Notes: generated by a model not told the origin, from the sequence alone. A stretch of 35,399 bases of DNA from Pseudomonadota bacterium (GCA_017555665.1 JAFZFY010000190.1:1-35399), one strand, 5' to 3'; positions 11,501 through 25,566 are shown, numbered from the stretch's first letter. Program-made: numbers and translations.

Positions 11501-13567
11501 ATGGCTATGGCTAAAATACATGTGCTTTCGCAGGCGCTTTCCAATCAGATCTCGGCTGGCGAGGTTCTCGAAAGGGCATCGAGCGCCGTGAAGGAGCTCG
11601 TTGAAAATTCATTGGATGCGGGCGCGACGGCGATCGAGATAGAGATCGATGACGGCGGCAGGAAGCGGCTGCTTGTCTGCGACAATGGCTGCGGCATGAC
11701 GCAGGAGGATGTGCAGCTCTCGATCCTTCGCCACGCGACATCCAAGATCGAGAAGACGGAAGATCTCGCTGCGATATCGACGATGGGTTTTCGCGGGGAG
11801 GCGCTGGCATCGATGGCGGCCGTGTCACGGATGACGATCACGACGCAGCGGCCGGGCGACGAGATGGGGACGCTTCTTCGCGTGGAAGGGACGGAAGTCG
11901 TCGAATGCCGCGAGACGGCTGCGCCTGCCGGCACCCAGATCGTCCTGGAGGATTTGTTTTTCAACACGCCTGCGCGCCTCAAATTCCTCAAGACGGCGGC
12001 GACGGAGATCCGCCGTGTGTACGAGGTCGTGGAGCAGTTCGGGCTGGCATGCCCCGAAGTGAGCTGGAAGCTCACGGTGGACGGGCGCGTCAAGTGCGAC
12101 TGGCCGAGCCACCGGACGCTGCGCGAGCGCGCCCTGGCGATCTTCGGGCGTTCCCTGTACGACAACCTGTTCCCGATCGTGCGCACGACGTACCAGGACA
12201 TCACGGTGGACGGGCTTTTCGGCTCGCCGGAATACCTGCAGTCGACTGCGGGCAGGATCTATACGTATGTGAATCGGCGCGTCGTGAAAGACCGGATGGT
12301 CAATATGTCGATCAGCCGTGCGTATCGAGAGTTCCTCCACGGCAAGCAGCCGTGCGTCGTGCTGTTCCTGACGCTTCCGCTCAGCCTAGTAGATGTGAAC
12401 GTGCACCCGACGAAGAGCGAGGTCCGTTTCAGGGAGCAGGATGTCGTGTTCCACGCGGTGTATCGCGCGCTTCGGCAGTCCCTGGAGCAGACCCCGTGGA
12501 TCCGCAGCATCGACGGCGCGGCGCGTCAGTCCGTGCCGCCGAAATTTTTTGAGATGCTTCCGGATGCGGCATTCCGCACGCCTGAAGATAACCTGTGCCG
12601 TGACTTCGGCCTCGTGCCGCATTATCCCGGCGCGGAGACGGGCGGCAGCGCGGCTCTGGATGCGGATCTGGCGGAGATGCCGTCGCCGGACACGGCTGGA
12701 TCCGCCGCGCGTGATGCGCGCGTGGCGCGCGAACTGAGCGTTTTCGATGCGGATATCCCGAAGCCCTCTGCCTGCGCCTCTTCCGGCAGCCCCTCTGCCT
12801 GCGCCTCTTCCGGCAGCCCCTCTGCCTGTGCCGCGCCTGCGCGCGAATCCGGCGATGACATCGAAGAACCGGCATGGAGGCTCCAGCCCGTGACGCCGCG
12901 CCCCGATCCGCCGCAGCAGCGCGAGCTTCCGCTGGAAGGCCAGACGGCCGCGAAGGGCTATTTCTCCAGCCTGAAATATATCGGCCAGCATGCGCTGACT
13001 TATCTGATCTGTGCCGACGGCGATGCGCTCGTGATCATCGACCAGCATGCGGCGCATGAGCGCATCAATTACGAGCGTCTTCGGGAAGTGTGCGAGAATA
13101 TCCTGCCGTCGTCATCGCAGATGCTCCTGTTCCCGATTTTGCTGCAGCTCGACACGCGATTGTCCGATGTGCTTGAGGAATATGCCGGTTTTTTTGAAAA
13201 GCTCGGCTTTCAGTTCGACGCGCTCGGCAGCAATTCACATGCGATCCGCGCGGTGCCGGACTGCCTGAACGGGTACGATTACACGGCGCTTCTCCGCGCG
13301 GCGCTGACCGAGCTGGCGGATAACGGGCGTTCCGGGCAGTTCGAGGCCATCCGGGACAATATTATCGCGACGATGGCGTGCCACAGCTCGATCCGTTCGG
13401 GCCAGAAGATGTCCCCCGACGAGGTCCGCGAGCTTCTCAGGCAGATGGACGAGACGGCATTCCGCTCGAACTGCCCGCATGGCCGGCCAGTCCATTTCGT
13501 GTGCACGGCATCGGAGCTTGCGAAGCGGTTCCTCCGGATCGGCTATAACGGGCTTGGAGGCGTTTGA
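11501..13567 (+). CDS. mutL: DNA mismatch repair endonuclease MutL
   Basis: MAMAKIHVLSQALSNQISAGEVLERASSAVKELVENSLDAGAT (GHKL ATPase N-terminus), MGFRGEAL, and the C-terminal dimerisation/endonuclease region (DQHAAHERINYE; ACHSSIRSGQ; CPHGRP). The track ORF start at 11252 overlaps the upstream gene and REPs, and I reject it. Confidence 0.93.
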   Translation: MAMAKIHVLSQALSNQISAGEVLERASSAVKELVENSLDAGATAIEIEIDDGGRKRLLVCDNGCGMTQEDVQLSILRHATSKIEKTEDLAAISTMGFRGEALASMAAVSRMTITTQRPGDEMGTLLRVEGTEVVECRETAAPAGTQIVLEDLFFNTPARLKFLKTAATEIRRVYEVVEQFGLACPEVSWKLTVDGRVKCDWPSHRTLRERALAIFGRSLYDNLFPIVRTTYQDITVDGLFGSPEYLQSTAGRIYTYVNRRVVKDRMVNMSISRAYREFLHGKQPCVVLFLTLPLSLVDVNVHPTKSEVRFREQDVVFHAVYRALRQSLEQTPWIRSIDGAARQSVPPKFFEMLPDAAFRTPEDNLCRDFGLVPHYPGAETGGSAALDADLAEMPSPDTAGSAARDARVARELSVFDADIPKPSACASSGSPSACASSGSPSACAAPARESGDDIEEPAWRLQPVTPRPDPPQQRELPLEGQTAAKGYFSSLKYIGQHALTYLICADGDALVIIDQHAAHERINYERLREVCENILPSSSQMLLFPILLQLDTRLSDVLEEYAGFFEKLGFQFDALGSNSHAIRAVPDCLNGYDYTALLRAALTELADNGRSGQFEAIRDNIIATMACHSSIRSGQKMSPDEVRELLRQMDETAFRSNCPHGRPVHFVCTASELAKRFLRIGYNGLGGV

Positions 13568-13787: not shown

Positions 13788-13979
13788 ATGTCAGAGTGTG
13801 ATTACGATGAGCTTTCGGTGTGGCAGGACGTTCTAGATGAAGTCATGAATGGTCATGTAGACGGCTTGGTCTGTCCATTTTGCGAGAAGAAAGCGATAGA
13901 AGTGGATACAGAAGGGGCCTCGATCAGCATCAAGTGTACGGAATGCGGCCGGTGGATAGAGGGTCAGAACGCGTTCTGA
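13788..13979 (+). CDS. Small Zn-ribbon protein (63 aa), first gene of the baseplate module
   Basis: CPFC...17 aa...CTEC pattern, AAGGAG Shine-Dalgarno 7 nt upstream, and 19 nt before the gp25-like gene. Confidence 0.6.
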   Translation: MSECDYDELSVWQDVLDEVMNGHVDGLVCPFCEKKAIEVDTEGASISIKCTECGRWIEGQNAF

Positions 13980-13998
13980 GAAATGGGGGCAGAAATCA

Positions 13999-14403
13999 AT
14001 GATAAACAGTAAGATCATAGGAAGCGGATTTTCGTTTCCAATGCAGATTGATGCTCTTGGCGGAACGGAGCTGAGTTCGGACAACGACAACATTCGCCAG
14101 AACATGATGCTGATATTGGGCACGGCTCCGGGAGAGCGTATGTGTCGTCCGACATTCGGATGCGCGATACACGATATATTGTTTGAGCCGAACACGCTCG
14201 TGACGGCGGCGAAGATCGAGTACGAGGTCAAGAAATCGCTTCTGGAATTCGAGCCTCGCGTATCAGATCTTGAAGTACATGCAGCGCCTGACGACAGCGA
14301 GCTGAGCCGCATGAATGTGACGATTTCATACACGATTCGCAAGACGAACACGAAGGCGAATCTCGTTTATCCGTTTTATCTTCGCAAAGAGGGAGAAGTA
14401 TGA
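13999..14403 (+). CDS. GPW/gp25-family baseplate wedge protein (TssE/Afp9-like)
   Basis: 134 aa. SGFSFPMQIDALGG...IRQNMMLILGTAPGERMCRPTFGCAIHDILFEP...EYEVKKSLLEFEPRV matches the gp25/GPW pattern. ATGA overlap with the next gene. Confidence 0.85.
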   Translation: MINSKIIGSGFSFPMQIDALGGTELSSDNDNIRQNMMLILGTAPGERMCRPTFGCAIHDILFEPNTLVTAAKIEYEVKKSLLEFEPRVSDLEVHAAPDDSELSRMNVTISYTIRKTNTKANLVYPFYLRKEGEV

Positions 14404-17400
14404 TTCCATTACCGAAACTGGACGACCGCAAGTGGGAAGATCTCGTCCGCGAGGCTGTAGAGCTGATACCAAAATACTGCCCGGAATGGACAAACCACAA
14501 CGCGGCAGACCCTGGTATAACGCTGTTAGAACTCTTTGCATGGCTGATCGAAGTTCTCCTTTATCGTTTGAACCGTGTCGGCGATAAGAACTATCTGGCA
14601 TTTCTGAACCTGATGGGGATTGATCTTCAGCCGCCGCAGCCATCGCGTGTGCAGCTGACGTTCAGCCTTGTATCGGGCGCGCGCAACTATCAGGTGGTTC
14701 CTGCGGGCACGAGCGTGGCGACGAATTACAAGAACGACGAGCCGCCTGTCGTGTTCGAGACGCTTCGTGACCTTGTTGTGCTCCCGACATCGATCGTGCG
14801 TTGCTTTGGTCAGTTTCACGATATTTATGCGGACAATACGCCGTATATTTACGGCCGCCCCGGGCAGTCGTTTGAAGTCTTCATGGGCTGCCAGCGCATC
14901 GAGCGTTATCTTTACTTCATGGACAGCCGTCTGGAGGTGCTCAGCGAGGAAGCGCTTCTGATCATCGGCGCGGAGACGCCGAACAGCCCTGACAGCGATT
15001 TCCCGACGCTGTGTGAATGGGAATACTGGAACGGGCACCGCTGGCGCGAGCTTGAAGCGTCGACGCAGGAGCTTCCGATCGGCTGGGTGGCGTTCAAGGG
15101 CGTTGACGGCATGGAAGAGACGACAGTCAACGATGTCAAGGGTCTTTGGATCCGCGCGCGTCTCGTGAATGTTCCTCAGAATCAGGACATGACGAGCCTT
15201 GAACGTCTCAAGATGCGCATCGAGATCCTGGGCGAGGGCATCCTTCCGGACAGCGCGATCACGCAGACGCCTGCGGATGATTTTGTGCCCGCAGACCTTT
15301 CAAAGAATTTCTTCCCGTTCCACAAAGAGCCGGCCGTGGACAGCGCGTTCTATATCGGCAACGACGAGCTTTTCGGCCATGAAAATGCGCGTATCCGCAT
15401 CGATTTCGAGCTTGCGGACGGCATCGCGGTGTCAGGCATGAATCCCTCGACGGATCTCCAGGTCGTCTGGGAATATTATGACGGTCGCCAGTGGCAGAAG
15501 ATCGGCATCGTCACCCCGAAGGGTGTCGAGGATTCGCTCAAGGGCATCGAGTTTGACGATTCGACATACTGCTTCACGCGTAACGGGACGGTGAGCTTCA
15601 CGGTGCCGGAGGATATGTCGAAAGTGGAAGTGTCCGACCAGGAAGCGTATTACGTCCGCGCGCGCATCCTCAAGGGCGATTACGGCGTTCCGGGCATGTA
15701 CATGCTCGATGGCGACAAGTGGGCATGGTTTGACGAGCGTCCGCTTCGGCCGCCTCAAATGAAATCAGTCCGCCTGAAATACGAGGAAGCGAGCCAGACG
15801 CCGCAGCTGGTCCTGACATATAACGATTTCCGGTATGAGGATGTGACGGCGCCGCTTTCGGAAGACCTCTCGACGACGCAGGTGTTCGAGCCGATTCCTG
15901 ACGAGAATCCGTCGATGTATTTCGGCATGAACGGCCCGTTCCCGAATGAGCGCGTCCAGGTGTATGTCCACGTCCTGACAAAGACGAGCGCGACGCTTGA
16001 GCGCAGCCGCGAGGACGCGAAATTCCTGCGCAACTACTATCGCAAGATGGAAGAAGAGTATTTCGGGAACAAGAAACTTGCCTGGGAATACTGGAACGGC
16101 CGCGAGTGGGCAGACCTGAATGTGACGGACGGCACGCGTGCGTTTACGGAATGCGGATATCTTGAGTTCATGGGACCGAAAGATATGGACGTGACGCGCA
16201 AGTTTGGCGAGAACCTTTACTGGATCAGGGTACGCCTTGAGATGGGCGGTTATGAGGAGCTTCCGCGTATCGACCACATCCTGTTCAACACGGTGGAAGC
16301 TGTGAACCGTCGCACGATCAATTACGAGATCATCGGCACCGGCCGTGGCACGCCGAACCAGGTGTTCAAGTTCCTGAACGCGCCAGTGCTTGAGGATGAG
16401 GAGATCTGGGTGCGTGAGAAGGAACGTCCTCGTGACGAGGAGATCACGGCGCTTCAGCAGCAGTATGGCACGAAGCCGTTCATGTATGAGGACACGCGTC
16501 TTGGCGGCTGGTGGGTGCGCTGGGAGAACGTGGACAGCTTCTTCCTGTCGAATGAGCGCAGCCGTCATTACCGCCTTGACCGCCTTTCCGGGCGTATTCA
16601 GTTCGGTAACGGCACGCGGGGGATGATGGTGCCTCTGATGGATCAGAACATCCGCACGAGCCACTATTGCATCGGCGGCGGCGTGAGGGGCAATATCGGT
16701 GTGAACCAGGCGACAACGATCCGTCAGGCGATTGCGTATATCGACGGCGTGACGAACCACTATCCCGCCGCAGGCGGCAGCGATGTGGAGTCGATCGAGG
16801 CCGTGAAACAGCGCGGGCCGTATGTCATCAAGAGCCGTTATCGTGCTGTGACCCAGGAAGACTTCGAGGTGCTCTCGCTTCAGAGCTCGAACGCGATCGC
16901 GCGTACATGCTGCCTGCCTGCAACGGAGCAGGAAGGCGCGGTGTGCATCATCGTCGTGCCGAAGTTCGACCAGGAAAAAGAAGAATATGACAAGAAGCTT
17001 GTGCCGACAGCAGAGCTGCTTCGCCGCGTGAAGGCCTATCTCGACGAGCGCCGCCTTGTGACGGTGCGCGTGAACGTGGAACGCCCGCAGTACACGGAGA
17101 TCAGCGTGTATATGGAGATCATCCGTACCTCGACCGGCGCAAGCGATCGTCTCAAACGCGATATCAACCGCGCGCTGAGGCGTTTCCTGCATCCGATCGT
17201 GGGCGGCCGCGACGGGCATGGCTGGAAGTTTGGACGCAGCGTTCTCAAGGTCGATCTCTATCACATTGTAGAGGAAGTGGACGGTGTCGAGTTCGTCGAT
17301 AAGCTTCAGATCCTCGATGAGGATCGCGGGATTTTTGTCGATCAGATCAAGCTCAGTCCCAAGGGGCTTCCGTTCCTTGTGAACGTGGATATCACGGAAA

Positions 17401-17423
17401 AGACGCGCGAGCGCGTCCTGTAA
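14400..17423 (+). CDS. Baseplate J / gp6-like baseplate assembly protein (1007 aa)
   Basis: The N-terminus LPKLDDRKWEDLVREAVELIPKYCPEWTNHNAADPGITLLELFAWLIEVLLYRLNRV resembles, from memory, the putative baseplate assembly protein family of tail-like clusters. The C-terminal part AVTQEDFEVLSLQ...CIIVVPK...RVKAYLDERRLVTVRVNV is gpJ-like. Translationally coupled to gp25. Confidence 0.85.
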   Translation: MIPLPKLDDRKWEDLVREAVELIPKYCPEWTNHNAADPGITLLELFAWLIEVLLYRLNRVGDKNYLAFLNLMGIDLQPPQPSRVQLTFSLVSGARNYQVVPAGTSVATNYKNDEPPVVFETLRDLVVLPTSIVRCFGQFHDIYADNTPYIYGRPGQSFEVFMGCQRIERYLYFMDSRLEVLSEEALLIIGAETPNSPDSDFPTLCEWEYWNGHRWRELEASTQELPIGWVAFKGVDGMEETTVNDVKGLWIRARLVNVPQNQDMTSLERLKMRIEILGEGILPDSAITQTPADDFVPADLSKNFFPFHKEPAVDSAFYIGNDELFGHENARIRIDFELADGIAVSGMNPSTDLQVVWEYYDGRQWQKIGIVTPKGVEDSLKGIEFDDSTYCFTRNGTVSFTVPEDMSKVEVSDQEAYYVRARILKGDYGVPGMYMLDGDKWAWFDERPLRPPQMKSVRLKYEEASQTPQLVLTYNDFRYEDVTAPLSEDLSTTQVFEPIPDENPSMYFGMNGPFPNERVQVYVHVLTKTSATLERSREDAKFLRNYYRKMEEEYFGNKKLAWEYWNGREWADLNVTDGTRAFTECGYLEFMGPKDMDVTRKFGENLYWIRVRLEMGGYEELPRIDHILFNTVEAVNRRTINYEIIGTGRGTPNQVFKFLNAPVLEDEEIWVREKERPRDEEITALQQQYGTKPFMYEDTRLGGWWVRWENVDSFFLSNERSRHYRLDRLSGRIQFGNGTRGMMVPLMDQNIRTSHYCIGGGVRGNIGVNQATTIRQAIAYIDGVTNHYPAAGGSDVESIEAVKQRGPYVIKSRYRAVTQEDFEVLSLQSSNAIARTCCLPATEQEGAVCIIVVPKFDQEKEEYDKKLVPTAELLRRVKAYLDERRLVTVRVNVERPQYTEISVYMEIIRTSTGASDRLKRDINRALRRFLHPIVGGRDGHGWKFGRSVLKVDLYHIVEEVDGVEFVDKLQILDEDRGIFVDQIKLSPKGLPFLVNVDITEKTRERVL

Positions 17424-17441
17424 TCGGCCTAAGGAGAAGCC

Positions 17442-18335
17442 ATGCGGGTACAGACCAAAAGAAAACTGAGTGTTCCCGATCTCGAAGGGCTGACGGCGGA
17501 GAACGCATCCGTATTTCTCGAGCTCAACGGATTTCCGAAACCGGATATTCTTTACGAGGAAAGTGATGCGCCGGCAATGACGGTACTGAATCAGGATCCC
17601 CAGAAAGGTCAGATCGTGGATGCGGATACGATCGTGACGATCTATGTGTCACAGAGTTCGTTCTGCGACCTTCTTCCGGGAATCTATCGTACGTCGATTT
17701 ATGAGGGGCATACGCATCTTCGCGATTATCTCTGGATATTCCGTCACATGTTCGACAGCGTGTCGATGGAAGTGGACAATATCCCGAAGATGTTCGATCC
17801 CTATGAGACGCCGGCTAAATTTTTGCCGTGGCTTGCCGGCTGGATCGGGTTTGTCCTCGATGAGGACTGGCCGGAAGGCAAGAAGCGCTATCTGCTTCGC
17901 CGTGCGCTCGAATACTATCGGATCCGCGGTACTGTTAAAGGGCTGAAGCTGTTCTTGTCGATATTCGTGGGCGTTGAGCCTGAGATTATCGAGAATGCAT
18001 GGCCGTTTAACGGATTTCAGATCGGCGTGCACTCGACGATGGATTTTGACACGATCATTTTCCCGGTCGTGAATCTATCTCACTGCTTTATCGTGGACAT
18101 ACCTCTGGAACCGGAGGAGGTGTCCGAGTACACGATCGTGAAGATTCACGATATCATACGCGCAGAAAAGCCGGCACACACGATGTATTATCTTCGCTTC
18201 AAGGGCAAGAAAGTGGCACTCTCGGAGTTCCAGCTGCTCGTCGGCGACGAAGAGCAGGGCTATGTCATCGGTTCTGGCGAAGAGATCGTGGAACTCGGCG
18301 AAACGGAAGTCGAGCGGCTGCCGGGTGAGGAATAA
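17442..18335 (+). CDS. PASTA-domain fusion to a P2 gpI-like phage tail (baseplate) protein
   Basis: Residues ~10-68 (VPDLEGLTAENASVFLELNGF...VLNQDPQKGQIVDADTIVTIYVS) fit PASTA. The remainder (LPGIYR...YLWIFRHMFDSV...FDPYETPAKFLPWLAGWIGFVLDEDWPEGKKRYLLRRALEYYRIRGTVKGLKLFL) fits the tail-protein-I domain. AAGGAG Shine-Dalgarno. Confidence 0.8.
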   Translation: MRVQTKRKLSVPDLEGLTAENASVFLELNGFPKPDILYEESDAPAMTVLNQDPQKGQIVDADTIVTIYVSQSSFCDLLPGIYRTSIYEGHTHLRDYLWIFRHMFDSVSMEVDNIPKMFDPYETPAKFLPWLAGWIGFVLDEDWPEGKKRYLLRRALEYYRIRGTVKGLKLFLSIFVGVEPEIIENAWPFNGFQIGVHSTMDFDTIIFPVVNLSHCFIVDIPLEPEEVSEYTIVKIHDIIRAEKPAHTMYYLRFKGKKVALSEFQLLVGDEEQGYVIGSGEEIVELGETEVERLPGEE

Positions 18336-18409
18336 TCAGTTAATTGTAAGCAGAATAAGGAAACCGACTGGGACGCAGGCGTTTCAGGCTTAACGCATCA
18401 GGTGGAGAT

Positions 18410-19957
18410 ATGGCAGAAGACCAGGGATTCAAGCGAATCAATTTTTTCAAGGGATTTGTGACGACGACGAAAGACTGGAATGATGCAGAGCAGTATCACG
18501 TCGAAAAGCACAAGCTCCATAACCGCTGTTTTCACGGTGCCGGTGTCGTGCCGGGTTACCGTCAGGAAATGAAGATCAGTGCACGCGGCCGCGCGGATAT
18601 GTCCGTTGAGGTGTCACCGGGCTATGCGATCGACGGTCAGGGCAATGATATCATGCTTTATGAGACCGAGATCAAGGCGGTCAATAAGGGCGATTTCAAG
18701 CTTCCGTTGACGATCTACTTTGTCGTGAGGTACGTGGAAGAGTTCACGGATTTCATCTCCTATAAAGAGAATCTCGATTTCAAAGGCCATCGCCGTATAT
18801 TGGAGAAAGCGGTCATTGAGATTTCGATTACGGAACCGGATATTTCCCGTGAAGTCGAGATTGGCCGTGTGTATCTGACCGATGATGCCAAGAAGATCAC
18901 GGATGCAAAAGATCCGCTCGAACCGGGTCCGAACGAGATCGACCTTCGCTTTGTGCCTCGCGCGGGTGTGGTCGGCGGTTATCTGCCGATGGAACTCATC
19001 AACCGCCTGCGCAAGATCATCCGCACGCAGCGCGATATGTATTATCGCATGGCTCGCGACAAGAAGGTTTTGGCAGCCAACGGCGCGGCGCTTGGTCTGA
19101 TGACGATCGATATGTTGCTCGAATCGGGCACTGTCGGACCGCAGAACGTCATGCCGCTCCTCGGCAATATCGGCGATCTCGAATGGGATACGATCACCGA
19201 GATCGAAGCGACGAAGCCGACCATGAAGGCTATGAAAGACTTCGGGCAGTTCAAGCACTCTGTCGAGGTGTTCCGTGATCTCGTCGATGACAAGGCGTTG
19301 CTCGTCGATGAAAATGAACTCATCAACTTCAACAGCCTCGATCAGGTGATTGCGATCAAGGAAAAAGGCTCTGGCGCGCTGGCATCGATCGTCGGCGAAG
19401 AACTCGCGCCTGCCATCCTCGAAAATGGCGAGGAAGTCATTTCTCAGGAATGGAACAAGCTGAAAGAAATGAGCGGCGAGCTCCCCGAAACTGTCATGAT
19501 CGATGGTCAGGAATGGACGCTCATCGACTCGATTGATATCCTCAACAAGGAAAGCGAGCAGGAACATATGTTCCAGATCATCGAGGCTCGCGACTCTTGG
19601 CGTGCACGTCAGCGCATCCGTTATCCGGATGGCGTGACTGTCGAAGATGTCGGTATTGCGCATGAAGGCGGCTATACGACATTCGAGATTCACAATGTCA
19701 CGATCAGCCGTCCGATCATGATCCTTCGCCGTATGGACTATGCTCGCGGCGATTTCGAGATCGAATACAGTGCAAACGAAGTGCGCATCGGTGTTTCCCA
19801 GTGCGTCGGCTCCGACAAGCGCTTCCGCTGGCGTAACTGGCCGTTCCTTGTGCCGGCTGAATTCGTCACCTCGGAAGTCGTCAAGATCACGCAGAAAGCA
19901 CTCACTGCTGCGCGTGATATCAATATGTACCACTTCTGGTTCTATCAGGCACTTTAA
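18410..19957 (+). CDS. Hypothetical 515-aa protein; candidate peripheral baseplate, TssK-like or receptor-binding component
   Basis: GGTGGAG Shine-Dalgarno and normal amino-acid composition, whereas the 439-aa antisense ORF has shadow-ORF composition. It sits immediately after W-J-I. I recognise no family with confidence. Confidence 0.7.
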   Translation: MAEDQGFKRINFFKGFVTTTKDWNDAEQYHVEKHKLHNRCFHGAGVVPGYRQEMKISARGRADMSVEVSPGYAIDGQGNDIMLYETEIKAVNKGDFKLPLTIYFVVRYVEEFTDFISYKENLDFKGHRRILEKAVIEISITEPDISREVEIGRVYLTDDAKKITDAKDPLEPGPNEIDLRFVPRAGVVGGYLPMELINRLRKIIRTQRDMYYRMARDKKVLAANGAALGLMTIDMLLESGTVGPQNVMPLLGNIGDLEWDTITEIEATKPTMKAMKDFGQFKHSVEVFRDLVDDKALLVDENELINFNSLDQVIAIKEKGSGALASIVGEELAPAILENGEEVISQEWNKLKEMSGELPETVMIDGQEWTLIDSIDILNKESEQEHMFQIIEARDSWRARQRIRYPDGVTVEDVGIAHEGGYTTFEIHNVTISRPIMILRRMDYARGDFEIEYSANEVRIGVSQCVGSDKRFRWRNWPFLVPAEFVTSEVVKITQKALTAARDINMYHFWFYQAL

Positions 19958-19982
19958 TCATCAGTTCGGCATGAGGCCGGCA

Positions 19983-20066
19983 AGAGGGGGTAGTCGGCGT
20001 ATTGCCCGGCACGTGACGTATGTCGCTGCCGGGCAATAGCCGCGCAGGGGGAGACTTCCCCCCTCC
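19983..20066 (+). repeat. Compound REP-like element, copy 2
   Basis: GAGGGGGTAGTCGGCgTAT-TGCCCGGCA...TGCCGGGCA-ATAGCCGCGCAGGGGGAgacTTCCCCCCT. It lies between the 515-aa gene and the next ORF. Confidence 0.75.
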
Positions 20067-20081
20067 ATATTGGAGAAAATT

Positions 20082-20354
20082 ATGGACGATAAAGAACGTT
20101 ACGAAATATTTAAAAAATTCCAGGGACGCTGTCATTACTGCGGTACACGCCTGAAATGGGAAGCCTTCGAAGTACGTGGGCTTTCCGGTGGCTGGGTCAT
20201 CGAAGATCAGGACGATGGCTCTAAACAGGCATTATGCTATAAGTGTTTGGAATTCCCGCAGCGTGGAAAAACAGCGCATCGCCTGACGATCAATGAAGAA
20301 CAGCGCCCGACAGGTGCTGGCTTGGGCGAAACCCCGGTCTCAAACGAACAATAA
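20082..20354 (+). CDS. Small Zn-ribbon protein (90 aa)
   Basis: CHYCG...38 aa...CYKC. TGGAGA Shine-Dalgarno upstream of ATG 20082; the track start at 20070 is TTG. It looks like an HNH finger but lacks the catalytic His. Confidence 0.55.
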   Translation: MDDKERYEIFKKFQGRCHYCGTRLKWEAFEVRGLSGGWVIEDQDDGSKQALCYKCLEFPQRGKTAHRLTINEEQRPTGAGLGETPVSNEQ

Positions 20355-20364
20355 GGAGGATTTC

Positions 20365-20829
20365 ATGGGAGCAAGCAAAACCCAGGTAATGAATTTGCTT
20401 GAGCTGCGCTATGATTATCAGTCTGCACGCAATGTTCTGGTGAATTGGCGCAAGGCGGCAGGCATTAAAGAAGATGTGGATTCGCTTGACGATGTTCAGC
20501 TTCGTTGTCTGCTCGCTTATCTCAAGGATAATGCGGCTGAGGCCAAACGTGTCCATGATGCGATTGAACGCCTGATTCTTACGGATAACGGCGATGCACC
20601 GGCTGTTGAAGCGGCTCCGGCAATCGAAGCGGTTGCGGTCGAAGAAGCCCCCGCAATCGAAGCGGTTGCGGTCGAAGAAGCCCCCGTAATCGAAGCGGTT
20701 GCGGTCGAAGAAGCCCCCGCAATCGAAGCGGTTGCGACTGAAGAAGCTCCGGCTGATGCGGCTGAAGAAGCTCCGGCTGATGCGGCTCCGGCTGAAGGTG
20801 GCAAAAAGAAAAAGAATAAGAAACGTTAA
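20365..20829 (+). CDS. Hypothetical protein: helical N-domain, acidic EEAPAIEAVAV tandem repeats, C-terminal GGKKKKNKKR
   Basis: AAGGAGGA Shine-Dalgarno 5 nt upstream of ATG 20365. 33-bp in-frame tandem repeats. Followed by a clean terminator. Confidence 0.7.
   Translation: MGASKTQVMNLLELRYDYQSARNVLVNWRKAAGIKEDVDSLDDVQLRCLLAYLKDNAAEAKRVHDAIERLILTDNGDAPAVEAAPAIEAVAVEEAPAIEAVAVEEAPVIEAVAVEEAPAIEAVATEEAPADAAEEAPADAAPAEGGKKKKNKKR
20620..20745 (+). repeat. Intragenic 33-bp tandem repeat (about 3.8 copies)
   Basis: The unit gcaatcgaagcggttgcggtcgaagaagccccc repeats at 20620, 20653, 20686 and, partially, 20719. A 24-nt gaagaagctccggctgatgcggct duplication follows. Confidence 0.85.
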
Positions 20830-20898
20830 TCATCTTGCCTCCGGCAGACCTTTTTGTCTCCGGAGTGCCGCCTTTAAGTATTGCTTAAAGGCATCTTA

Positions 20899-20933
20899 GG
20901 GTGCAGGGATGACGATCTCTGCACCTTTTTTTT
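20899..20933 (+). terminator. Rho-independent terminator closing the plus-strand baseplate operon
   Basis: GGTGCAG-12 nt-CTGCACC followed by T8. Confidence 0.8.
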
Positions 20934-20957
20934 GCTCTGTTCTACAAGCGTGGATGT

Positions 20958-21051
20958 GGCTTTTCTGGACCTCATCCGCGCCCTCTCCAGTTTGGAGAGG
21001 GCGGTGGGTTCGCTTGTCGCCCATGTTTGGTGTACTCAAAGGACGGTATCT
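20958..21051 (+). repeat. About 95-nt intergenic repeat, copy E1
   Basis: Shares ggcttttc..gacctc...[hairpin]...gggttcgct...cccatgtttgg.gtac.caaggac.gtatct with 23484-23590. Hairpin CGCCCTCTCCA-gtt-TGGAGAGGGCG at 20979-21002. Confidence 0.7.
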
Positions 21052-21151
21052 GTTTTATTGCCGTGTATGTGGCAATTCCCTGACCGTTTTAGGACCCAGG
21101 ATATGCGTTAGAGGGGTGAAGCGATTGAAGGTATCATCGGAGGATATAGGC

Positions 21152-21183
21152 AAAAAAAAGCCTGTATCGCGAAGATACAGGCC
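21152..21183 (-). terminator. Rho-independent terminator of the spike gene
   Basis: The minus strand reads GGCCUGUAUC-uucgc-GAUACAGGC followed by U8, 22 nt after the stop at 21206. Confidence 0.8.
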
Positions 21184-21205
21184 TTAAAACATCAAAGATT
21201 TGATA

Positions 21206-22063
21206 TTACGGGTTGAGATCGATGGTCGAGCCCTTGAGTGTCATCTTACCAGAAGCCGTGATATCAGTGGTTGCATCGCTCTTGGAGGTGAGCTTGTTGC
21301 ATTTTATGTCGAGTGTCTTTCCAGCCTTGAAGGAGACATTCTCCTCGGCTTCGAGTTCAAAGTTTTTGCACTCCATACGGATTTTTTCTTTAGCCTTGAT
21401 AAGGATATCACCGGTATCTGTCTGGAGCGTAATTTTCTTGTTGGCGGTATCGATTTCGAGCCACTGCTGCTGATCTTTATCATAGAGGCGGATGCGCTCG
21501 CTGCCGTCTTTATCATCGATAAAGAGTTCTGCAGATTTGGCGGAGCGGACGGAGACACCACCTTCCCCGTCTTTATCGACGAAAGCGAGTGTATGTCCCA
21601 TACGGGAACGGAAGAAGCGGAAATTGTTTTCGCCGCCCTGCTGATTATTGGGGACATCAACCTCAGTCTGATCAGGCGAATAGGTAAGTTTTCTCGGAGA
21701 GTTATTGACGCCGTTCCAGAGGGAACCGACGATGATGGGTCTTCCGAAATCACCTTCCTCAAAGACGACCATGACTTCGTCATCGATTTCGGGGAGCCAA
21801 ACGCCACCCATATCGCTACCGGTCATCAGGGAGGTGATACGAGCCCAATGGCTTTGAACTTTGGATTCAGAGCCATCGGAGGTAGTTTCTTTTGAGTACT
21901 GGTCAGACAGCCACGGGAAGGAGACGCGAACGCGATAGCGATCTTCAGGATCGACATTATCCACGACTTTCGCGATCATGCCGCCCTGCATACGGGCTTC
22001 GCCCGAACGTCCCTGGTGACTCTCATTTAACATTTCGCTAATGACTTTTCCTATCGATGCCAT
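21206..22063 (-). CDS. gpV/gp5-type baseplate spike (VgrG C-terminal-half-like: OB-fold plus beta-helix), 285 aa
   Basis: GMIAKVVDNVDPEDRYRVRVSFPWL...SHWARITSLMTGSDMGGVWLPEIDDEVMVVFEEGDFGRPIIVGSLWNG is the gp5/VgrG OB-fold signature. The C-terminal alternating beta-strand repeats (ITLQTDTGDILIKAKEKIRMECKNFELEAEENVSFKAGKTLDIKCNKLT) are beta-helix-like. There is no gp27-like N-terminal half. Confidence 0.85.
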   Translation of the reverse strand: MASIGKVISEMLNESHQGRSGEARMQGGMIAKVVDNVDPEDRYRVRVSFPWLSDQYSKETTSDGSESKVQSHWARITSLMTGSDMGGVWLPEIDDEVMVVFEEGDFGRPIIVGSLWNGVNNSPRKLTYSPDQTEVDVPNNQQGGENNFRFFRSRMGHTLAFVDKDGEGGVSVRSAKSAELFIDDKDGSERIRLYDKDQQQWLEIDTANKKITLQTDTGDILIKAKEKIRMECKNFELEAEENVSFKAGKTLDIKCNKLTSKSDATTDITASGKMTLKGSTIDLNP

Positions 22064-22230: not shown

Positions 22231-23229
22231 TCAGTCAAAGTTCAGGTGAATACCCATTGCGAACCCATCCTGCATGGGGCTCAGATACGCACTCACATTG
22301 TCGACTTCGACGCGTTTTTTATCGCCGACATAGCTGAGGATAGCCAAGGTCGCACCAGTCGCGGCCGTCGCTAAGCCAACGCCGACGAATGTTCCCATCA
22401 AGGCATTACCCAGTTTCACCTTGCCATTTGCATCTGACTGCTTTTTCTCAAGCGCATCTTTTTCGGCGCTCTCTTTTCCGAGCTTTGCGATCTCGATCGA
22501 GTAGTTGATTTCATCGACCTTTGCGCTGTGTGCCATTGCCAGGAAGCCAAAGCCGCCTGCGACAAGTGCAAGACCGCCGCCGATCAGTCCCCAGTAAAGG
22601 TGAGGATTAAATTTTTCTTCCATGATATAGGTGTGTTCTTCCTTGACGACTTTTTCGACTTCGACCTGTTCGGCTTCAAAAGCGATATGGAGGCGCTGTT
22701 CTTTGCTTCCATTTACGGCCTTATGCTTGACTTCTTTTGTTTTTCCCTTGGCGTCCACAAGCTTGATGATGTGATCGCCAGGAGACATGGAATATGCGCG
22801 TTCCCAGCAAGCTGCCACACGCTCGCCATCGATCAACACATAACCGCCTGCTGGGATTTCGCAGTCAAGGTAGATCTTCTGCCACTCGCTGCAGGATGCG
22901 ATCTCATCATACGCCTTTACTGCGCGCTGATAGATCTGATTCTTTTCGGGGAGATTATACGCAACCATCACCTCGGTATAGTAATGTTGCGCCTCGGTAC
23001 ATTGATTCAACCTTTGATATGCCCTGCCTAAGGAGTAATCCACCTCAGGCCCTGCAAACTGCACGCGAAGTTCCAGATACTGCCTCAAAGCCTCACCGAG
23101 ATCGACTTTTGTCATTGCGGCCGCATCCGCCATGCGTGTCTTAAACTCTTCCATATCCTGGGCCTGGACAGTCGAGGAAAAGGCACAGAACGCGAGAACC
23201 GAATACATCAGCGGCTTAATTAATCTCAT
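22231..23229 (-). CDS. Secreted or membrane protein with a TPR-like N-region, a PEGA-like beta domain and C-terminal TM segments
   Basis: Signal peptide MRLIKPLMYSVLAFCAFSSTVQA; IPAGGYVLIDGERV...SPGDHIIKLV resembles PEGA; two hydrophobic stretches near the C-terminus; GGAGGA Shine-Dalgarno. Confidence 0.5.
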   Translation of the reverse strand: MRLIKPLMYSVLAFCAFSSTVQAQDMEEFKTRMADAAAMTKVDLGEALRQYLELRVQFAGPEVDYSLGRAYQRLNQCTEAQHYYTEVMVAYNLPEKNQIYQRAVKAYDEIASCSEWQKIYLDCEIPAGGYVLIDGERVAACWERAYSMSPGDHIIKLVDAKGKTKEVKHKAVNGSKEQRLHIAFEAEQVEVEKVVKEEHTYIMEEKFNPHLYWGLIGGGLALVAGGFGFLAMAHSAKVDEINYSIEIAKLGKESAEKDALEKKQSDANGKVKLGNALMGTFVGVGLATAATGATLAILSYVGDKKRVEVDNVSAYLSPMQDGFAMGIHLNFD

Positions 23230-23673: not shown

Positions 23674-25566
23674 TTATTTGCAAACGCCGTTGTTGCAGCT
23701 TGACTCACAGAACTCGTAGTCGCCCATGAAGTAGCCATAGCCACCAGCTTCCGTCTTGTCGCAGGTATATTGAACGGAGAGCGGATAGCCCATATAGGTC
23801 ATGCATACTTTTTCAGCAGGATCGCCCGCGTTGCATGCGATCGCGCAGTCGGAATAATTATCTGCGGCACGGACGGCACACGGCGCGTCGCTGTCGCATT
23901 CGATCGTGGCAACGGCGCCCTCGCTGCAATAATAACCCGTGTTGCCATCGCACACTTCGACAAAGTTGTCATCGCATTTGTCGCCGACTGTCGGACCTGT
24001 GCCGCCCGAAACGCACGCGCCGTTCGAGCATTTCTCGTCACATGTCTGTGAATCTACCCAAGCACCGTTCTTACAGGTCTGGACAGTCTTGCCAGAGCAT
24101 TTTTTCGCACCCTCCGTGCAGGTCGCGGGGCTCTGGCCGTCGCAAACGCCATTGTCGCAGCTCGATTCGCAGAACGTATAATCGCCCATGAAGTAGCCAT
24201 AGCCGCCAGCTTCCGTCTTGTCGCAGGTATATTGAACGGCGAGCGGATAGCCCATGTAAGTCATGCATACGCTTTCAGCAGGATCACCCGCGTTGCACGC
24301 GACAGCACAGTCGGAGTAGTTGTCGGAGGCACGGACGGCACACGGCGCGTCATTATCGCAATCGATCGTATCAACAGTGCCTTCGCTGCAATAGTAACCC
24401 GTGTTGCCATCACAGAGCTCGACGAAGTTGTCATCGCACTTGTCGCCAACGCTCGGAATGGTGACGGGATCGCTTGAGCAAGCACCGCTCTTGCAGCTGA
24501 TATCACATGACTGACTGGTGACCCATTCGCCGTTCGTGCAGGTCTGGACATCCTTGCCGGAGCAGCGTTTTGTGCCGTCCGTGCAAGCCGTAGGCGTCTG
24601 GCCATCGCAAACACCGTTGCTGCAGCTCGATTTGCACACTTCATATTCGCCCATGAAATAGGCATAGCTGCCATCTTCCGTCTTGTCGCAGGTATATTTG
24701 ACGGAAAGCGGATTGCCCATATAGTCTACGCATACGTTCTCGGCAGGATCACCCGCGTTGCACTCAGAGGCGCAGTCGGAATAATTGTCGGAAGCACGGA
24801 CGGCACACGGCGCATCGCTGTCGCATTCGAACGTCTCGACCTTGCTCTCATGACAATAGTAGCCGGTATTGCCGTCGCAGACTTCGGTGAAGTTGTCGTC
24901 ACAGCTGTCACCCACGTTAGGAATGCTACCCGCTTCAACGCATTTACCGCTACGGCAGGTGTCGGCACCAGGCTGGTTGCACACGGAAATCGTCTTCCAT
25001 ACGCCATCCTGACATTCCTGAACGGCTTCGCCTGCTGCACAACGCGTCGCACCTTCTTTGCAGGCCGCTTCTGCTACGCATGAACCGGCTTTGCACGTCT
25101 GACCGCTCGGGCAGGGCGAATCAACCCATGTATTGTTGGAACAAACCTGATGTGCACCCAGCGATGTGCAGCGCTGCGCACCCGCATTACATACGGTTTC
25201 GGGGGTAACCGAATCTGGATCACAGTAGGCACCATTCGGACCGGATGTGCACGCCAGCGCGCCGCAATCTGTCAGCTCATACGTCCATTTCGATTCGCTG
25301 CAGTATTTGACCGAATTGCCTGCACATACCGGCTTCGTCGTCGCAGGATTGCATTCCTGAATCGACAGACATTCGCCGCTGTTGCACGTTCTGCCTGTAG
25401 GACACGGAATCGAAACATACTCGCCATCGACACATTCCTGGCGTACACCGCTCGCATTACAAATGCGATGACCTTCCTCGCACGCCGCCTTGTTGCCATC
25501 TTCTTCATTACACGACGCACAGCTCAGTGCCGCCAGCATCGCAATAACAGTCCATGTCTTTTTCAT
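23674..25566 (-). CDS. Cysteine-rich repeat lipoprotein (about 630 aa)
   Basis: MKKTWTVIAMLAALSCASC signal/lipobox-like N-terminus with GGAGA Shine-Dalgarno upstream of ATG 25566. N-terminal C-x-G-x-x-C modules are followed by three ~154-aa repeats (GDxCDDNFxExCDGNTGYYC...DNYSDCA..CNAGDPAE.VC...YTCDKTE.G.Y.YFMG.Y..C.SSC.NGVC). Confidence 0.8.
   Translation of the reverse strand: MKKTWTVIAMLAALSCASCNEEDGNKAACEEGHRICNASGVRQECVDGEYVSIPCPTGRTCNSGECLSIQECNPATTKPVCAGNSVKYCSESKWTYELTDCGALACTSGPNGAYCDPDSVTPETVCNAGAQRCTSLGAHQVCSNNTWVDSPCPSGQTCKAGSCVAEAACKEGATRCAAGEAVQECQDGVWKTISVCNQPGADTCRSGKCVEAGSIPNVGDSCDDNFTEVCDGNTGYYCHESKVETFECDSDAPCAVRASDNYSDCASECNAGDPAENVCVDYMGNPLSVKYTCDKTEDGSYAYFMGEYEVCKSSCSNGVCDGQTPTACTDGTKRCSGKDVQTCTNGEWVTSQSCDISCKSGACSSDPVTIPSVGDKCDDNFVELCDGNTGYYCSEGTVDTIDCDNDAPCAVRASDNYSDCAVACNAGDPAESVCMTYMGYPLAVQYTCDKTEAGGYGYFMGDYTFCESSCDNGVCDGQSPATCTEGAKKCSGKTVQTCKNGAWVDSQTCDEKCSNGACVSGGTGPTVGDKCDDNFVEVCDGNTGYYCSEGAVATIECDSDAPCAVRAADNYSDCAIACNAGDPAEKVCMTYMGYPLSVQYTCDKTEAGGYGYFMGDYEFCESSCNNGVCK
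23683..25070 (-). repeat. Three tandem ~462-465-bp intragenic repeats
   Basis: The landmark ggtatat(t)tgaacgg/gacgg...agcggat(a/t)gcccat recurs at 23764, 24226 and 24691. The antisense track ORFs at 23770 and 24232 are near-identical. Confidence 0.8.

What the first reader, a model, noticed from the sequence alone, without database searches (positions are those of the whole stretch)
13788..22063. Orphan baseplate-and-spike module of a contractile tail-like machine, embedded in core genes near oriC
Seen in the sequence: seven co-directional ORFs are tightly packed right after mutL (an ATGA overlap between gp25 and J, and short Shine-Dalgarno-bearing gaps elsewhere). A convergent spike gene has its own promoter and terminator. 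The products I recognise are gp25/GPW, a 1007-aa Baseplate-J protein, a P2-gpI-like protein and a gpV/gp5 OB-fold spike.

Established knowledge: V-W-J-I is the minimal baseplate set of P2-type tails, and it corresponds to the wedge core of eCIS and of T6SS (TssE/F/G).

Not visible anywhere in 35 kb: sheath, tube, tape measure, gp27/gpD hub, LysM/gpX, tube initiator, terminator cap, AAA+ ATPase, PAAR, capsid, lysis or integrase. All module ORFs look intact and the flanks are housekeeping genes.

Inference: three explanations fit. (a) It is one half of a split CIS locus. (b) It is an unusually well-preserved tailocin or prophage remnant. (c) It is an exapted baseplate-like complex working without a contractile sheath; the PASTA fusion, the unknown 515-aa protein and the Zn-ribbons make this worth considering.
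Basis: partly seen in the sequence, partly recalled or inferred. Interest (0 to 1): 0.85.

Follow-up and report, generated by a model that had tools for sequence, protein, structure and literature searches.

The report
Baseplate block of a scattered injection machine
These genes are real, intact baseplate and spike parts of a phage-tail-like contractile injection machine, but they are not orphans: the sheath, tube, cap and hub genes of the same machine lie elsewhere in the same genome, so this is one piece of a gene set scattered around the chromosome.

Summary
Directly after mutL lie a 63-aa Zn-ribbon gene, gp25/Cis9, a 1007-aa Baseplate_J/Cis11, a PASTA+Tail_P2_I/Cis12-like protein, a 515-aa protein and two small genes. 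A convergent gpV-type spike gene follows. No sheath, tube, cap, hub or tape-measure homologue occurs anywhere in the 35 kb.

The module is not orphan. In relatives with 45-67% identical J proteins, the same five genes form the distal end of one contiguous locus: cap, sheath, tube, sheath, tube, tape-measure-like protein, CIS_tube/LysM, gpD hub, then the Zn-ribbon block. In the window's own MAG (locus tag IKY83), GenBank accession blocks place tube, cap and hub proteins on other contigs. A sister species with the same mutL synteny has a [tape-measure/CIS_tube/hub] and [cap/sheath/tube] contig in the same two samples.

The wedge genes are under selection as strong as rpsD (dN/dS 0.02-0.04). The closest solved relative is the Streptomyces coelicolor CIS. 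The 515-aa protein models as a TssK/receptor-binding-protein-like subunit with a carbohydrate-binding-module-like head.

Options (b) remnant and (c) sheath-less complex are not supported. Interest is modest.

The parts
13788..13979 (+). 63-aa C4 Zn-ribbon protein, first gene of the wedge operon
   Evidence: It gives weak Lar_restr_allev/Zn-ribbon hits. It is conserved immediately upstream of gp25 in split loci (L003, L004, L005, L056) and in contiguous loci (L017, L020, L022, L026) at 52-95% identity. dN/dS is 0.038. Its function is unknown.
13999..14403 (+). gp25/GPW = Cis9/TssE-like sheath-initiator wedge protein (134 aa)
   Evidence: Pfam GPW_gp25 2.6e-23. phrog_261 1.2e-26. TssE model 7.4e-08, below its cut-off. 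dN/dS 0.043.
14400..17423 (+). Baseplate_J = Cis11-like wedge protein (1007 aa)
   Evidence: Baseplate_J 1.5e-18. TIGR02243 at 345 bits against a cut-off of 156. PDB 9gtp_1K, S. coelicolor CIS Cis11, at 8.7e-77. More than 774 full-length homologues in Bradymonadales/Myxococcota MAGs. dN/dS 0.037.
17442..18335 (+). PASTA-like N-domain + Tail_P2_I = Cis12-like wedge protein (297 aa)
   Evidence: Tail_P2_I 3.9e-13 and PASTA 1.9e-08. TIGR02242 at 79 bits against a cut-off of 52, and CIS12_fam 1.4e-22, below its cut-off. PDB 9gtp_E at 1.6e-09. The N-domain is conserved across the whole family, including contiguous loci.
18410..19957 (+). 515-aa TssK/receptor-binding-protein-like peripheral baseplate protein
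   Evidence: No Pfam or PHROG hit. The N-terminus matches CIS13_fam at 7.8e-12, below its cut-off. It always follows the I-like gene, also in contiguous loci; identity to L001 is 43%. The AF2 model has pLDDT 88.9 and three domains. Foldseek top hits are TssK (5y0e, 1.2e-07), Anabaena Cis19 and CBM6/CBM4 for the C-domain, and phage receptor-binding proteins. The family has 1664 representatives.
20070..20354 (+). 94-aa (called 90-92 aa) CxxC Zn-ribbon protein, clade-specific accessory gene
   Evidence: It is conserved after the 515-aa gene in L003 (78%) and L056 (86%) but not in L005, L004 or L017. No family hit passes a threshold.
20293..20829 (+). Ala/Glu-rich repeat protein with a Lys-rich tail; the real start is probably later (154 aa as called in L007). 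Last gene of the operon.
   Evidence: It contains 33-bp tandem repeats at 20620-20747. It is conserved in L003 and L056 at about 72%. Copy number differs between strains: 154 aa in L007 and 132 aa in L008. A terminator-like hairpin lies at 20898-20927.
21206..22063 (-). gpV/gp5-type spike: OB fold plus beta-helix (285 aa)
   Evidence: Phage_base_V 4.8e-21. It matches the C-terminal halves of VgrG in the PDB, best 6.3e-11. It is 100% identical to MBR4985471.1, IKY83_07020. A promoter-like site lies at 22150-22121 and a terminator-like site at 21185-21157.
22231..23229 (-). 332-aa envelope protein (signal peptide, ~190-aa domain, two TM helices) that travels with the spike gene
   Evidence: It has no family hit. 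A homologue (60% and 38% identity) lies directly upstream of the spike gene, on the same strand, in L011/L012 and L013, where no other CIS gene is within 10 kb. Topology comes from hydropathy analysis. Its role is inferred only.

Best explanation
The region encodes the baseplate wedge and receptor-binding block, plus the spike, of a complete contractile injection system (CIS). The system's genes have been scattered around the chromosome in this Bradymonadia-like lineage of Myxococcota.

Proposed assembly, by homology with the S. coelicolor CIS structure:
- Six wedges form, each made of two J/Cis11 and one I/Cis12 subunit, and each is linked to the first sheath ring by gp25/Cis9.
- The wedges surround a central hub. 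The hub consists of a gpD-like protein and a CIS_tube initiator, both encoded elsewhere, capped by the gpV spike encoded here.
- Trimers of the 515-aa TssK/RBP-like protein sit on the wedge periphery.
- Sheath, tube, Pvc16-type cap and a tape-measure-like protein come from other loci.

Inferred mechanism: the CBM-like head of the 515-aa protein, and perhaps the PASTA-like domain of Cis12, bind a glycan or cell-wall ligand. This triggers baseplate opening, the sheath contracts, and the tube and spike are driven into a target.

Shown here: the homologies, the split, and the selection on the genes. Inferred: the stoichiometry, the ligand, and whether the particle acts outside the cell, from the envelope, or inside the producer.
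For: 1. Contiguous ancestry. L017/L021 (J 67% identical) has cap, sheath, tube, p123, sheath, tube, a 1607-aa protein, CIS_tube/LysM, gpD hub, Zn63, gp25, J, I, a 518-aa protein and an FHA protein in one run. The same holds for L020/L026/L027 (61-64%), L022, and L001/L032 (45%).

2. Same genome. By exact look-up the window's J, 515-aa protein and spike are MBR4985466.1, MBR4985468.1 (IKY83_07005) and MBR4985471.1 (IKY83_07020). Tube MBR4984203.1, cap MBR4984205.1 and hub MBR4986003.1 fall in the same accession block. Four sister MAGs show the same pairing, for example J MBQ9241984 with hub MBQ9243705, cap ..708, sheath ..709 and tube ..710.

3. Sister species. L056/L057 (J 94.7% identical, same CarD-rpsD-hisS-SurA-mutL-wedge synteny) and L051/L055 ([tape-measure/CIS_tube/hub] ... 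PBP ... [cap/sheath/tube], GC 0.54) come from the same two samples, ERZ27256836 and SRR27361822. L050 is NCBI GCA_017464085.1.

4. Selection. dN/dS is 0.017-0.043 at dS 0.5-0.84, equal to rpsD and CarD.

5. Solved relatives. J matches 9gtp Cis11 at 8.7e-77, I matches 9gtp_E at 1.6e-09, and the relatives' 391-aa sheath matches the CIS-Sc sheath 8bky at 1.2e-137. Wedge composition is taken from PMC12237407.

6. The 515-aa protein.
Against: - The sheath of the window's own MAG was not seen directly. It is inferred from the accession number between its tube and cap, and from the gene order cap-sheath-tube in L050.
- Linking proteins to one MAG by accession block and by shared samples is strong but indirect, and MAG binning can err.
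- The second sheath/tube pair (589 aa and 151 aa) of the contiguous loci was not found in this lineage.
- No AAA+ ATPase, PAAR protein or effector was identified.
- There are no expression or particle data.
- The mode of action is open. The closest solved relative (CIS-Sc) works inside the producer and lacks a fibre, whereas this system has an RBP-like subunit.
Confidence: 0.85

Rival explanations
1. Exapted baseplate-like complex that works without a contractile sheath. On this reading the wedge, RBP-like protein and spike form a stand-alone envelope or adhesion device.
For: - The wedge operon is an independent transcription unit with its own terminator.
- It moves as a unit between neighbourhoods: after mutL, ychF, rubrerythrin or a histidine kinase.
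- The spike travels with a membrane protein rather than with the tube genes.
- The search seeded with the L015 hub returned few hub homologues.
Against: - Sheath, tube, cap, hub and CIS_tube genes are present in the same MAGs.
- gp25, whose known role is to start the sheath, is as constrained as the other genes (dN/dS 0.043).
- The PASTA domain, the 515-aa protein and the Zn-ribbon also occur in contiguous loci with a sheath.
Confidence: 0.05
2. Well-preserved remnant of a prophage or tailocin that is on its way to decay.
For: - All the products have phage-tail homologues.
- The locus has been broken up repeatedly, once next to transposases (L004).
Against: - dN/dS is 0.02-0.04 at dS up to 0.84.
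- Full-length orthologues exist throughout a clade spanning 63-95% identity.
- No integrase, capsid or lysis gene is present.
- GC content equals that of the surroundings (0.545 against 0.542).
- The complementary parts are retained elsewhere in the genome.
Confidence: 0.03
3. The split is an artefact of assembly or binning, and in the real chromosome the sheath, tube and hub genes adjoin this module.
For: All the evidence comes from MAG and metagenome contigs. The hub of the IKY83 MAG sits at a contig end.
Against: - In the window the operon is bounded by 13.7 kb of housekeeping genes upstream (dnaA to mutL) and more than 13 kb of non-CIS genes downstream.
- The same bounded arrangement recurs in independent assemblies: L007, L008, L056 and L057.
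- The sheath cluster on the 75-kb contig L051 is itself flanked by unrelated genes: a PBP, a PPIase, OTCase and a peptidase M20.
Confidence: 0.02

Closest known systems
Streptomyces coelicolor cytoplasmic CIS (CIS-Sc, type IId eCIS; PDB 9gtp/9gtr/9gts, 8bky)
   Same: - It is the best solved match for J (Cis11, 8.7e-77), for I (Cis12, 1.6e-09) and for the relatives' sheath (1.2e-137).
- It has a gp25-like Cis9.
- It has a Pvc16-type cap.
- It has no conventional tail fibre gene.
- An accessory gene follows the baseplate genes (PMC12237407).
   Different: - CIS-Sc is one contiguous cluster. Here the genes lie in at least four loci.
- CIS-Sc has a fused VgrG-like Cis8. Here there is a separate gpD hub and gpV spike.
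- J here is 1007 aa against 652 aa.
- Cis12 here carries a PASTA-like domain.
- The slot after the baseplate genes holds a soluble TssK/RBP-like protein here, not the membrane protein CisA.
- The host is a diderm Myxococcota bacterium, not an actinomycete.
Afp / PVC / AlgoCIS extracellular contractile injection systems
   Same: - The same module set is present: cap (Pvc16_N), sheath paralogues, gp19-type tube, LysM/CIS_tube initiator, gp25, J and I-like proteins.
- The TIGR02243 and TIGR02242 marker families are met.
- PDB hits to 7aeb and 6j0n are weaker.
   Different: - No Afp13-type fibre, AAA+ ATPase or PAAR protein was seen.
- The genes are dispersed.
- By homology to CIS-Sc the wedge is probably 2 Cis11 + 1 Cis12, rather than 1 + 1.
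T6SS baseplate (TssE/F/G/K + VgrG)
   Same: - gp25 corresponds to TssE, J to TssF, I to TssG, and the spike to the C-terminal half of VgrG.
- The 515-aa protein models with a TssK-like shoulder, neck and head (Foldseek 1.2e-07).
- FHA proteins follow the locus in relatives.
- Dispersal of genes over several loci is common in T6SS.
   Different: - No TssB/C-type sheath, ClpV or TssJLM was seen.
- The TssE model scores below its cut-off (32 bits against 53).
- The sheath and cap are of the eCIS type.
Anabaena thylakoid-anchored CIS (tCIS, PDB 7b5h)
   Same: The N-domain of the 515-aa protein resembles Cis19 (All3314), the trimeric 'crown' protein. The sequence match is weak (E 0.055); the fold match is 1e-04. 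Both systems extend the baseplate periphery (PMC8894136).
   Different: There is no transmembrane Cis13 and no long Cis12 extension. The 515-aa protein is much shorter (515 aa against 1476 aa) and ends in a CBM-like head.
P2/Mu phage baseplate (V-W-J-I, gpD hub)
   Same: The gene order hub, (V), W, J, I and the separate gpD and gpV proteins are the same. There is a weak Phage_Mu_Gp48 hit in L001.
   Different: There are no capsid, lysis or integration genes. J is far larger. The genes are fixed in the chromosome under strong purifying selection.

Membership tests
Contractile injection system (eCIS/CIS superfamily) | Baseplate wedge set: gp25-like, Baseplate_J-like and P2_I-like proteins | tested here: met
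   Pfam hits all exceed their gathering scores. TIGR02243 scores 345 against 156 and TIGR02242 scores 79 against 52.
Contractile injection system (eCIS/CIS superfamily) | Contractile sheath and inner tube genes in the same genome | tested here: met
   - They are not in the window.
- Tube MBR4984203.1 and cap MBR4984205.1 lie in the window's MAG accession block; the sheath is inferred between them.
- Sheath MBQ9243709.1 and tube MBQ9243710.1 were seen in sister MAG GCA_017464085.1.
- The link is indirect, resting on accession blocks and shared samples.
Contractile injection system (eCIS/CIS superfamily) | Central hub and spike (gp27/gpD + gp5/gpV, or VgrG) | tested here: met
   The spike has Phage_base_V at 4.8e-21 in the window. 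The hub, a 'phage late control D' protein MBR4986003.1, is in the same MAG. Phage_GPD scores 5.2e-13 in L050.
Contractile injection system (eCIS/CIS superfamily) | Genes clustered in one locus (the working criterion of eCIS catalogues) | tested here: not met
   The wedge operon, the spike pair, tape-measure/CIS_tube/hub and cap/sheath/tube are separate. Clustering is met in relatives L017, L020, L026 and L001.
eCIS in the strict sense (released particle that binds targets) | Pvc16/Afp16-type cap | tested here: met
   Pvc16_N scores 5.8e-19 in L021. It is present in L050. MBR4984205.1 is in the window's MAG.
eCIS in the strict sense (released particle that binds targets) | Tail fibre or receptor-binding protein on the baseplate | tested here: inconclusive
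   There is no Afp13-type fibre. The 515-aa protein has an RBP/TssK-like predicted fold with a CBM-like head. This rests on a model only; the ligand and location are unknown.
eCIS in the strict sense (released particle that binds targets) | Release from the producer and action from outside | not testable with these tools
   This needs particle purification or cryo-ET.
CIS-Sc-like (type IId) lineage | Closest sequence relationship of sheath, Cis11 and Cis12 to the Streptomyces system | tested here: met
   Among solved structures, 9gtp and 8bky are the top hits. No phylogeny against unsolved CIS lineages was made.
CIS-Sc-like (type IId) lineage | CisA-type membrane protein downstream of the baseplate genes | tested here: not met
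   The downstream gene encodes a soluble 515-aa protein; its highest 19-residue hydropathy is 1.41 and it has no TM segment. A membrane protein (332 aa) accompanies the spike gene instead. Homology to CisA was not tested.
Type VI secretion system | TssB/C sheath, ClpV, TssJLM membrane complex | not tested
   None is in the window or in the fetched loci. The sheath found is of the phage/eCIS type, Phage_sheath_1. The rest of the genome could not be searched.
Type VI secretion system | TssK baseplate subunit | tested here: inconclusive
   Similarity is at fold level only: Foldseek 1.2e-07, with TM 0.27-0.44. No TssK sequence family was hit.
Prophage / tailocin | Integrase, lysis cassette, capsid genes or att sites | tested here: not met
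   None appears among the Pfam-scanned ORFs of the window. GC content is the same as the flanks.

The most novel reading that the evidence does not exclude
This lineage of (probably rumen or gut) Bradymonadia has turned an eCIS-type machine into a fully chromosomal, regulon-like system. Its parts are expressed from at least four separate loci. Its baseplate carries a TssK/RBP-like trimer and a PASTA-like domain, and its spike is paired with an envelope membrane protein. On this reading it is an evolutionary intermediate between free eCIS particles and envelope-anchored T6SS, possibly used for contact-dependent killing of prey.
Probability: 0.15. Interest if true: 0.65.

Novelty: new member of a known kind. 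Interest (0 to 1): 0.3.

Why it matters
- It removes a false lead. There is no sheath-less 'orphan baseplate' here.
- CIS gene sets can be scattered, so catalogues that require one contiguous cluster will miss them or call them partial.
- The lineage offers a natural series from contiguous to partly split to fully split loci (L001/L017, then L015, then the window). This could be used to study how phage-derived machines become ordinary chromosomal regulons.
- The TssK/RBP-like 515-aa protein and the PASTA-bearing Cis12 are testable candidates for how a fibre-less CIS recognises its target.
- Myxococcota eCIS-like clusters have been proposed as predation weapons (PMC11937823), but none has been tested.

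Tried and rejected
- **Genome scan with the L017 sheath.** Scanning GTDB genomes with it as a single query found only itself and one 66% relative. The pattern method was too narrow, so this says nothing about absence.
- **JGI metagenome scan.** A scan with a CIS_tube/LysM alignment gave 11 loci, and every long one was contiguous. It did not reach the window clade.
- **IMG/VR scan with the window's J.** It found nothing. The sheath scan found relatives, but they had the wrong GC content for this clade; L035 has GC 0.63.
- **Hub search from L015.** It returned only 11 proteins. For a time this suggested the hub might be missing from the clade. One search disproved that, with hub proteins in all five MAGs.
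- **A withdrawn link.** I first took L013 (lone spike pair) and L018 (full locus) for the same organism because they share a sample. GC content of 0.65 against 0.57 says otherwise, so I dropped the claim.
- **Structure prediction of the 515-aa protein.** It was redone with library representatives.
- **PADLOC.** It gave only a PASTA-type hit to PD-T4-6, so there is no defence-system reading.
- **Literature.** No paper links Bradymonadales to a CIS.

Full report
**What is in the window**

ORF listing and Pfam scans give this map:
- dnaA at 1686-3131 (minus strand)
- an AT-rich stretch with five perfect DnaA boxes at 3656-4028
- a CDP-alcohol phosphatidyltransferase, CarD, rpsD, hisS, a SurA-like chaperone and mutL (ending at 13567)
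- seven co-directional genes from 13788 to 20829
- a convergent spike gene at 21206-22063 (minus strand), preceded on its own strand by a 332-aa gene at 22231-23229
- unrelated genes: a 671-aa unknown, a HAD hydrolase, HlyIII, a 964-aa NlpC/P60 protein, a CAAX protease and an FHA/HD-GYP protein

PHROGs and NCBIfam agree; J meets TIGR02243 at 345 bits against a cut-off of 156.

The ATGA overlap between gp25 and J is real. A promoter-like site lies upstream of the spike, and terminator-like hairpins follow both the spike and the plus-strand operon.

**Is anything else of the machine in the window?**

No. I took sheath, tube, cap, CIS_tube initiator, gpD hub, tape-measure-like protein and p123 from close relatives and ran tblastn against the window. 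There were no hits at E<=1e-5 or E<=1e-2.

**What the relatives show**

The J protein has hundreds of full-length (~1000 aa) homologues at 45-95% identity. Those that carry a name come from Bradymonadales, Bradymonadia or Myxococcota MAGs. Gene neighbourhoods fall into three groups:
- **Contiguous.** In L001/L032 (J 45% identical), L020/L026/L027 (61-64%), L022 and L017/L021 (67%), the same block sits at the distal end of one locus. The block is the 63-aa Zn-ribbon (absent only in L001), gp25, J, the PASTA/I-like protein and a ~515-aa protein. The full locus reads: Pvc16_N cap, 391-aa sheath, tube, a 123-aa 'tail assembly' protein, 589-aa sheath, tube, a ~1600-aa tape-measure-like protein, CIS_tube/LysM initiator, gpD-type hub, then the block, usually followed by FHA-domain proteins.
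- **Intermediate.** In L015 (57%) the sheath and tube are gone from the locus, but tape-measure, CIS_tube and hub still precede the block.
- **Split.** In L004 (63%, next to transposases), L005/L006 (71%), L003/P0011 (82%), L056/L057 (95%) and the window, the five-gene block stands alone. Its upstream neighbour differs in each: a histidine kinase, rubrerythrin, ychF and mutL.

A neighbour-joining tree of J puts window, L056, L003 and L005 in one all-split clade. Its sister clade holds two contiguous loci and one split locus. Fragmentation therefore happened at least two or three times.

**Are the missing parts in the same genome?**

Exact-sequence look-ups settle this.

The window's proteins are:
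- J = MBR4985466.1
- gp25 = MBR4985465.1
- 515-aa protein = MBR4985468.1 (IKY83_07005)
- spike = MBR4985471.1 (IKY83_07020)

Locus tag 07005 is roughly the 1401st gene. The MAG's accession block therefore starts near MBR49841xx and must extend past MBR4986003, so all three fall inside it. The sheath is inferred to be MBR4984204.

Four sister MAGs in the same 90% J cluster show the same pairing. One example is J MBQ9241984 with hub MBQ9243705, cap ..708, sheath ..709 and tube ..710.

The context of that sheath is L050 (GCA_017464085.1), L051 (a 75-kb contig), L052-L055. It reads [1478-aa tape-measure-like protein, 327-aa CIS_tube, gpD hub], two small genes, a class A PBP, then [cap, sheath (91% identical to L021's), tube], then a PPIase and other unrelated genes. 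GC content is 0.54, as in the window.

The matching J contigs (L056, L057) carry exactly the window's CarD-rpsD-hisS-SurA-mutL-wedge synteny. They come from the same two samples as L051 and L055.

So the machine is complete but dispersed. The evidence is indirect for the window's own sheath, and it rests on MAG binning. The pattern nevertheless repeats in five MAGs and two samples.

**The spike**

Spike homologues at 79% and 63% identity (L011/L012 and L013/L014) lie among housekeeping genes, with no other CIS gene within 10 kb. In L011/L012 and L013, a homologue of the window's 332-aa protein sits just upstream on the same strand.

That protein has a signal peptide, a ~190-aa domain and two transmembrane helices. 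In the sister species L056 the spike pair is not next to the wedge operon. Their adjacency in the window is therefore a local accident of rearrangement, not a conserved 'baseplate-and-spike module'.

**Selection**

I compared the window with L056:

| Gene | dN/dS |
|---|---|
| Zn63 | 0.038 |
| gp25 | 0.043 |
| J | 0.037 |
| I | 0.017 |
| 515-aa protein | 0.039 |
| rpsD | 0.037 |
| CarD | 0.025 |
| hisS | 0.090 |
| SurA-like | 0.194 |

dS for the wedge genes is 0.5-0.84. This rules out a decaying remnant. It also shows that gp25, the sheath initiator, is not relaxed.

**Closest known system**

Against PDB sequences:
- J matches Cis11 of the Streptomyces coelicolor CIS (9gtp_1K, 8.7e-77). Matches to AlgoCIS and the Anabaena tCIS are much weaker.
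- The I-like protein matches 9gtp_E (1.6e-09), and its N-domain matches PknB PASTA units.
- The relatives' 391-aa sheath matches the CIS-Sc sheath at 1.2e-137.
- The spike matches the C-terminal halves of VgrG proteins.

In CIS-Sc each wedge is two Cis11 plus one Cis12, joined to the sheath by Cis9. There are no fibres, and a membrane protein, CisA, encoded after the baseplate genes is needed for firing (PMC12237407).

eCIS-like clusters have already been noted in uncultured Myxococcota MAGs and proposed as predation weapons (PMC11937823). No paper links Bradymonadales with a CIS.

**The 515-aa protein**

It has no Pfam or PHROG family. Its N-terminus gives a sub-threshold match to NCBIfam CIS13_fam (7.8e-12) and a weak match to Anabaena All3314/Cis19.

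A full scan of 1.84 billion representatives finds 1664 relatives. Its N-domain and C-domain also occur in other architectures.

An AlphaFold2 model built from a 33-sequence alignment has mean pLDDT 88.9. It shows a beta-rich N-domain (1-190), a helical bundle (194-330) and a C-terminal beta-sandwich (360-515).

Foldseek results are as follows:
- TssK ranks first (5y0e at 1.2e-07; also 5mwn, 6n38 and 5m30).
- Cis19 chains of 7b5h follow.
- The C-domain matches CBM6/CBM4/CBM35 modules (TM 0.5-0.66 on the target).
- Against viral models the top hits are phage receptor-binding and tail-fibre proteins.

Whole-chain TM-scores are low (0.27-0.44) because the three domains are arranged differently, so this is a fold-level lead and not membership. 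I read the protein as the peripheral, probably trimeric, receptor-binding or anchoring subunit of the baseplate.

The PASTA-like domain of the Cis12-like protein is conserved across the whole family, including contiguous loci.

**Mechanism and its uncertainty**

Shown:
- homology of every part
- completeness of the gene set at genome level
- purifying selection

Inferred by homology to 9gtp: six wedges of 2 J + 1 I + gp25 surround a hub of gpD, CIS_tube and spike, with the 515-aa protein outside.

Inferred only: ligand binding by the CBM-like head and/or the PASTA domain opens the baseplate and fires the sheath.

Where the machine acts is open. My rough split is:
- released eCIS-like particle that binds prey, about 45%
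- envelope-associated, T6SS-like, about 25% (hinted by the membrane protein next to the spike and by FHA proteins in relatives)
- intracellular, like CIS-Sc, about 20%

**Verdict**

'Orphan' and the favoured exaptation idea are not supported.

This is a new member of the known CIS kind. It has an unusual scattered gene layout and a few features of interest to specialists: the TssK/RBP-like subunit, the PASTA-bearing Cis12, the separate gpD and gpV proteins, and the Zn-ribbon. Interest is about 0.3.

Noticed in passing
window 3656-4063: Five perfect DnaA boxes (TTATCCACA), in two inverted pairs plus one, and one box with a single mismatch, lie in the AT-rich gap (GC 0.35) upstream of dnaA. This is very likely oriC. 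No dnaN follows dnaA.
   Followed up: partly
L021 7115-8290; L026 3-986; L032 567-1718; L050 10001-11176: The 391-aa sheath is far more conserved than the rest of the machine. It is 95%, 91% and 80% identical between genomes whose J proteins are 77%, 67% and 48% identical. Cap, 144-aa tube and p123 are also highly conserved. The second sheath/tube pair (589 aa and 151 aa) evolves fast (44-66% and 30-74%) and was not found in the window's lineage.
   Followed up: partly
window 20620-20747 (also L008 6192-6590): There are 3.9 copies of a 33-bp tandem repeat encoding A-I-E-A-V-A-V-E-E-A-P in the last gene of the operon. The product is 154 aa in L007 and 132 aa in L008, so copy number varies between strains of one species. 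The protein ends in a Lys-rich tail.
   Followed up: partly
window 12764-12832: A 27-bp tandem repeat (2.6 copies) lies in the mutL linker and encodes SACASSGSP. MutL is only 70% identical to the sister species, while the adjacent wedge proteins are 95-97% identical.
   Followed up: no
L001 15738-18337; L004 15822-17039; L017 17789-18814; L026 18837-18968: FHA-domain proteins, one with a Zn-ribbon and one with a VWA domain, directly follow the 515-aa gene in most relatives outside the window's clade. This recalls Fha-type regulation of T6SS. In the window's clade a 94-aa Zn-ribbon protein and an Ala/Glu-repeat protein take that place.
   Followed up: no
window 33207-35033 (-) and 28111-31005 (-): An FHA + HD-GYP protein (608 aa) and a 964-aa protein with an NlpC/P60 domain lie 6-13 kb from the module. 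Neither is conserved next to the module in the sister species, so no link to the machine is shown.
   Followed up: no
window 20909-21187: The 92-aa ORF between the operon and the spike lies between two facing terminator-like hairpins (20898-20927 on the plus strand, 21185-21157 on the minus strand). It has no homologue or family hit and is probably not a gene.
   Followed up: partly
window 23674-25689 (-): A 671-aa protein has no hit in Pfam, NCBIfam or PADLOC. It is conserved only in the same species (L007, L008) and ends at a strong terminator-like hairpin (23640-23608).
   Followed up: no
L004 17247-18746 and 21978-23015: Two DDE transposase genes flank the independently split wedge operon of L004. 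This suggests IS-mediated rearrangement as one route to fragmentation.
   Followed up: no
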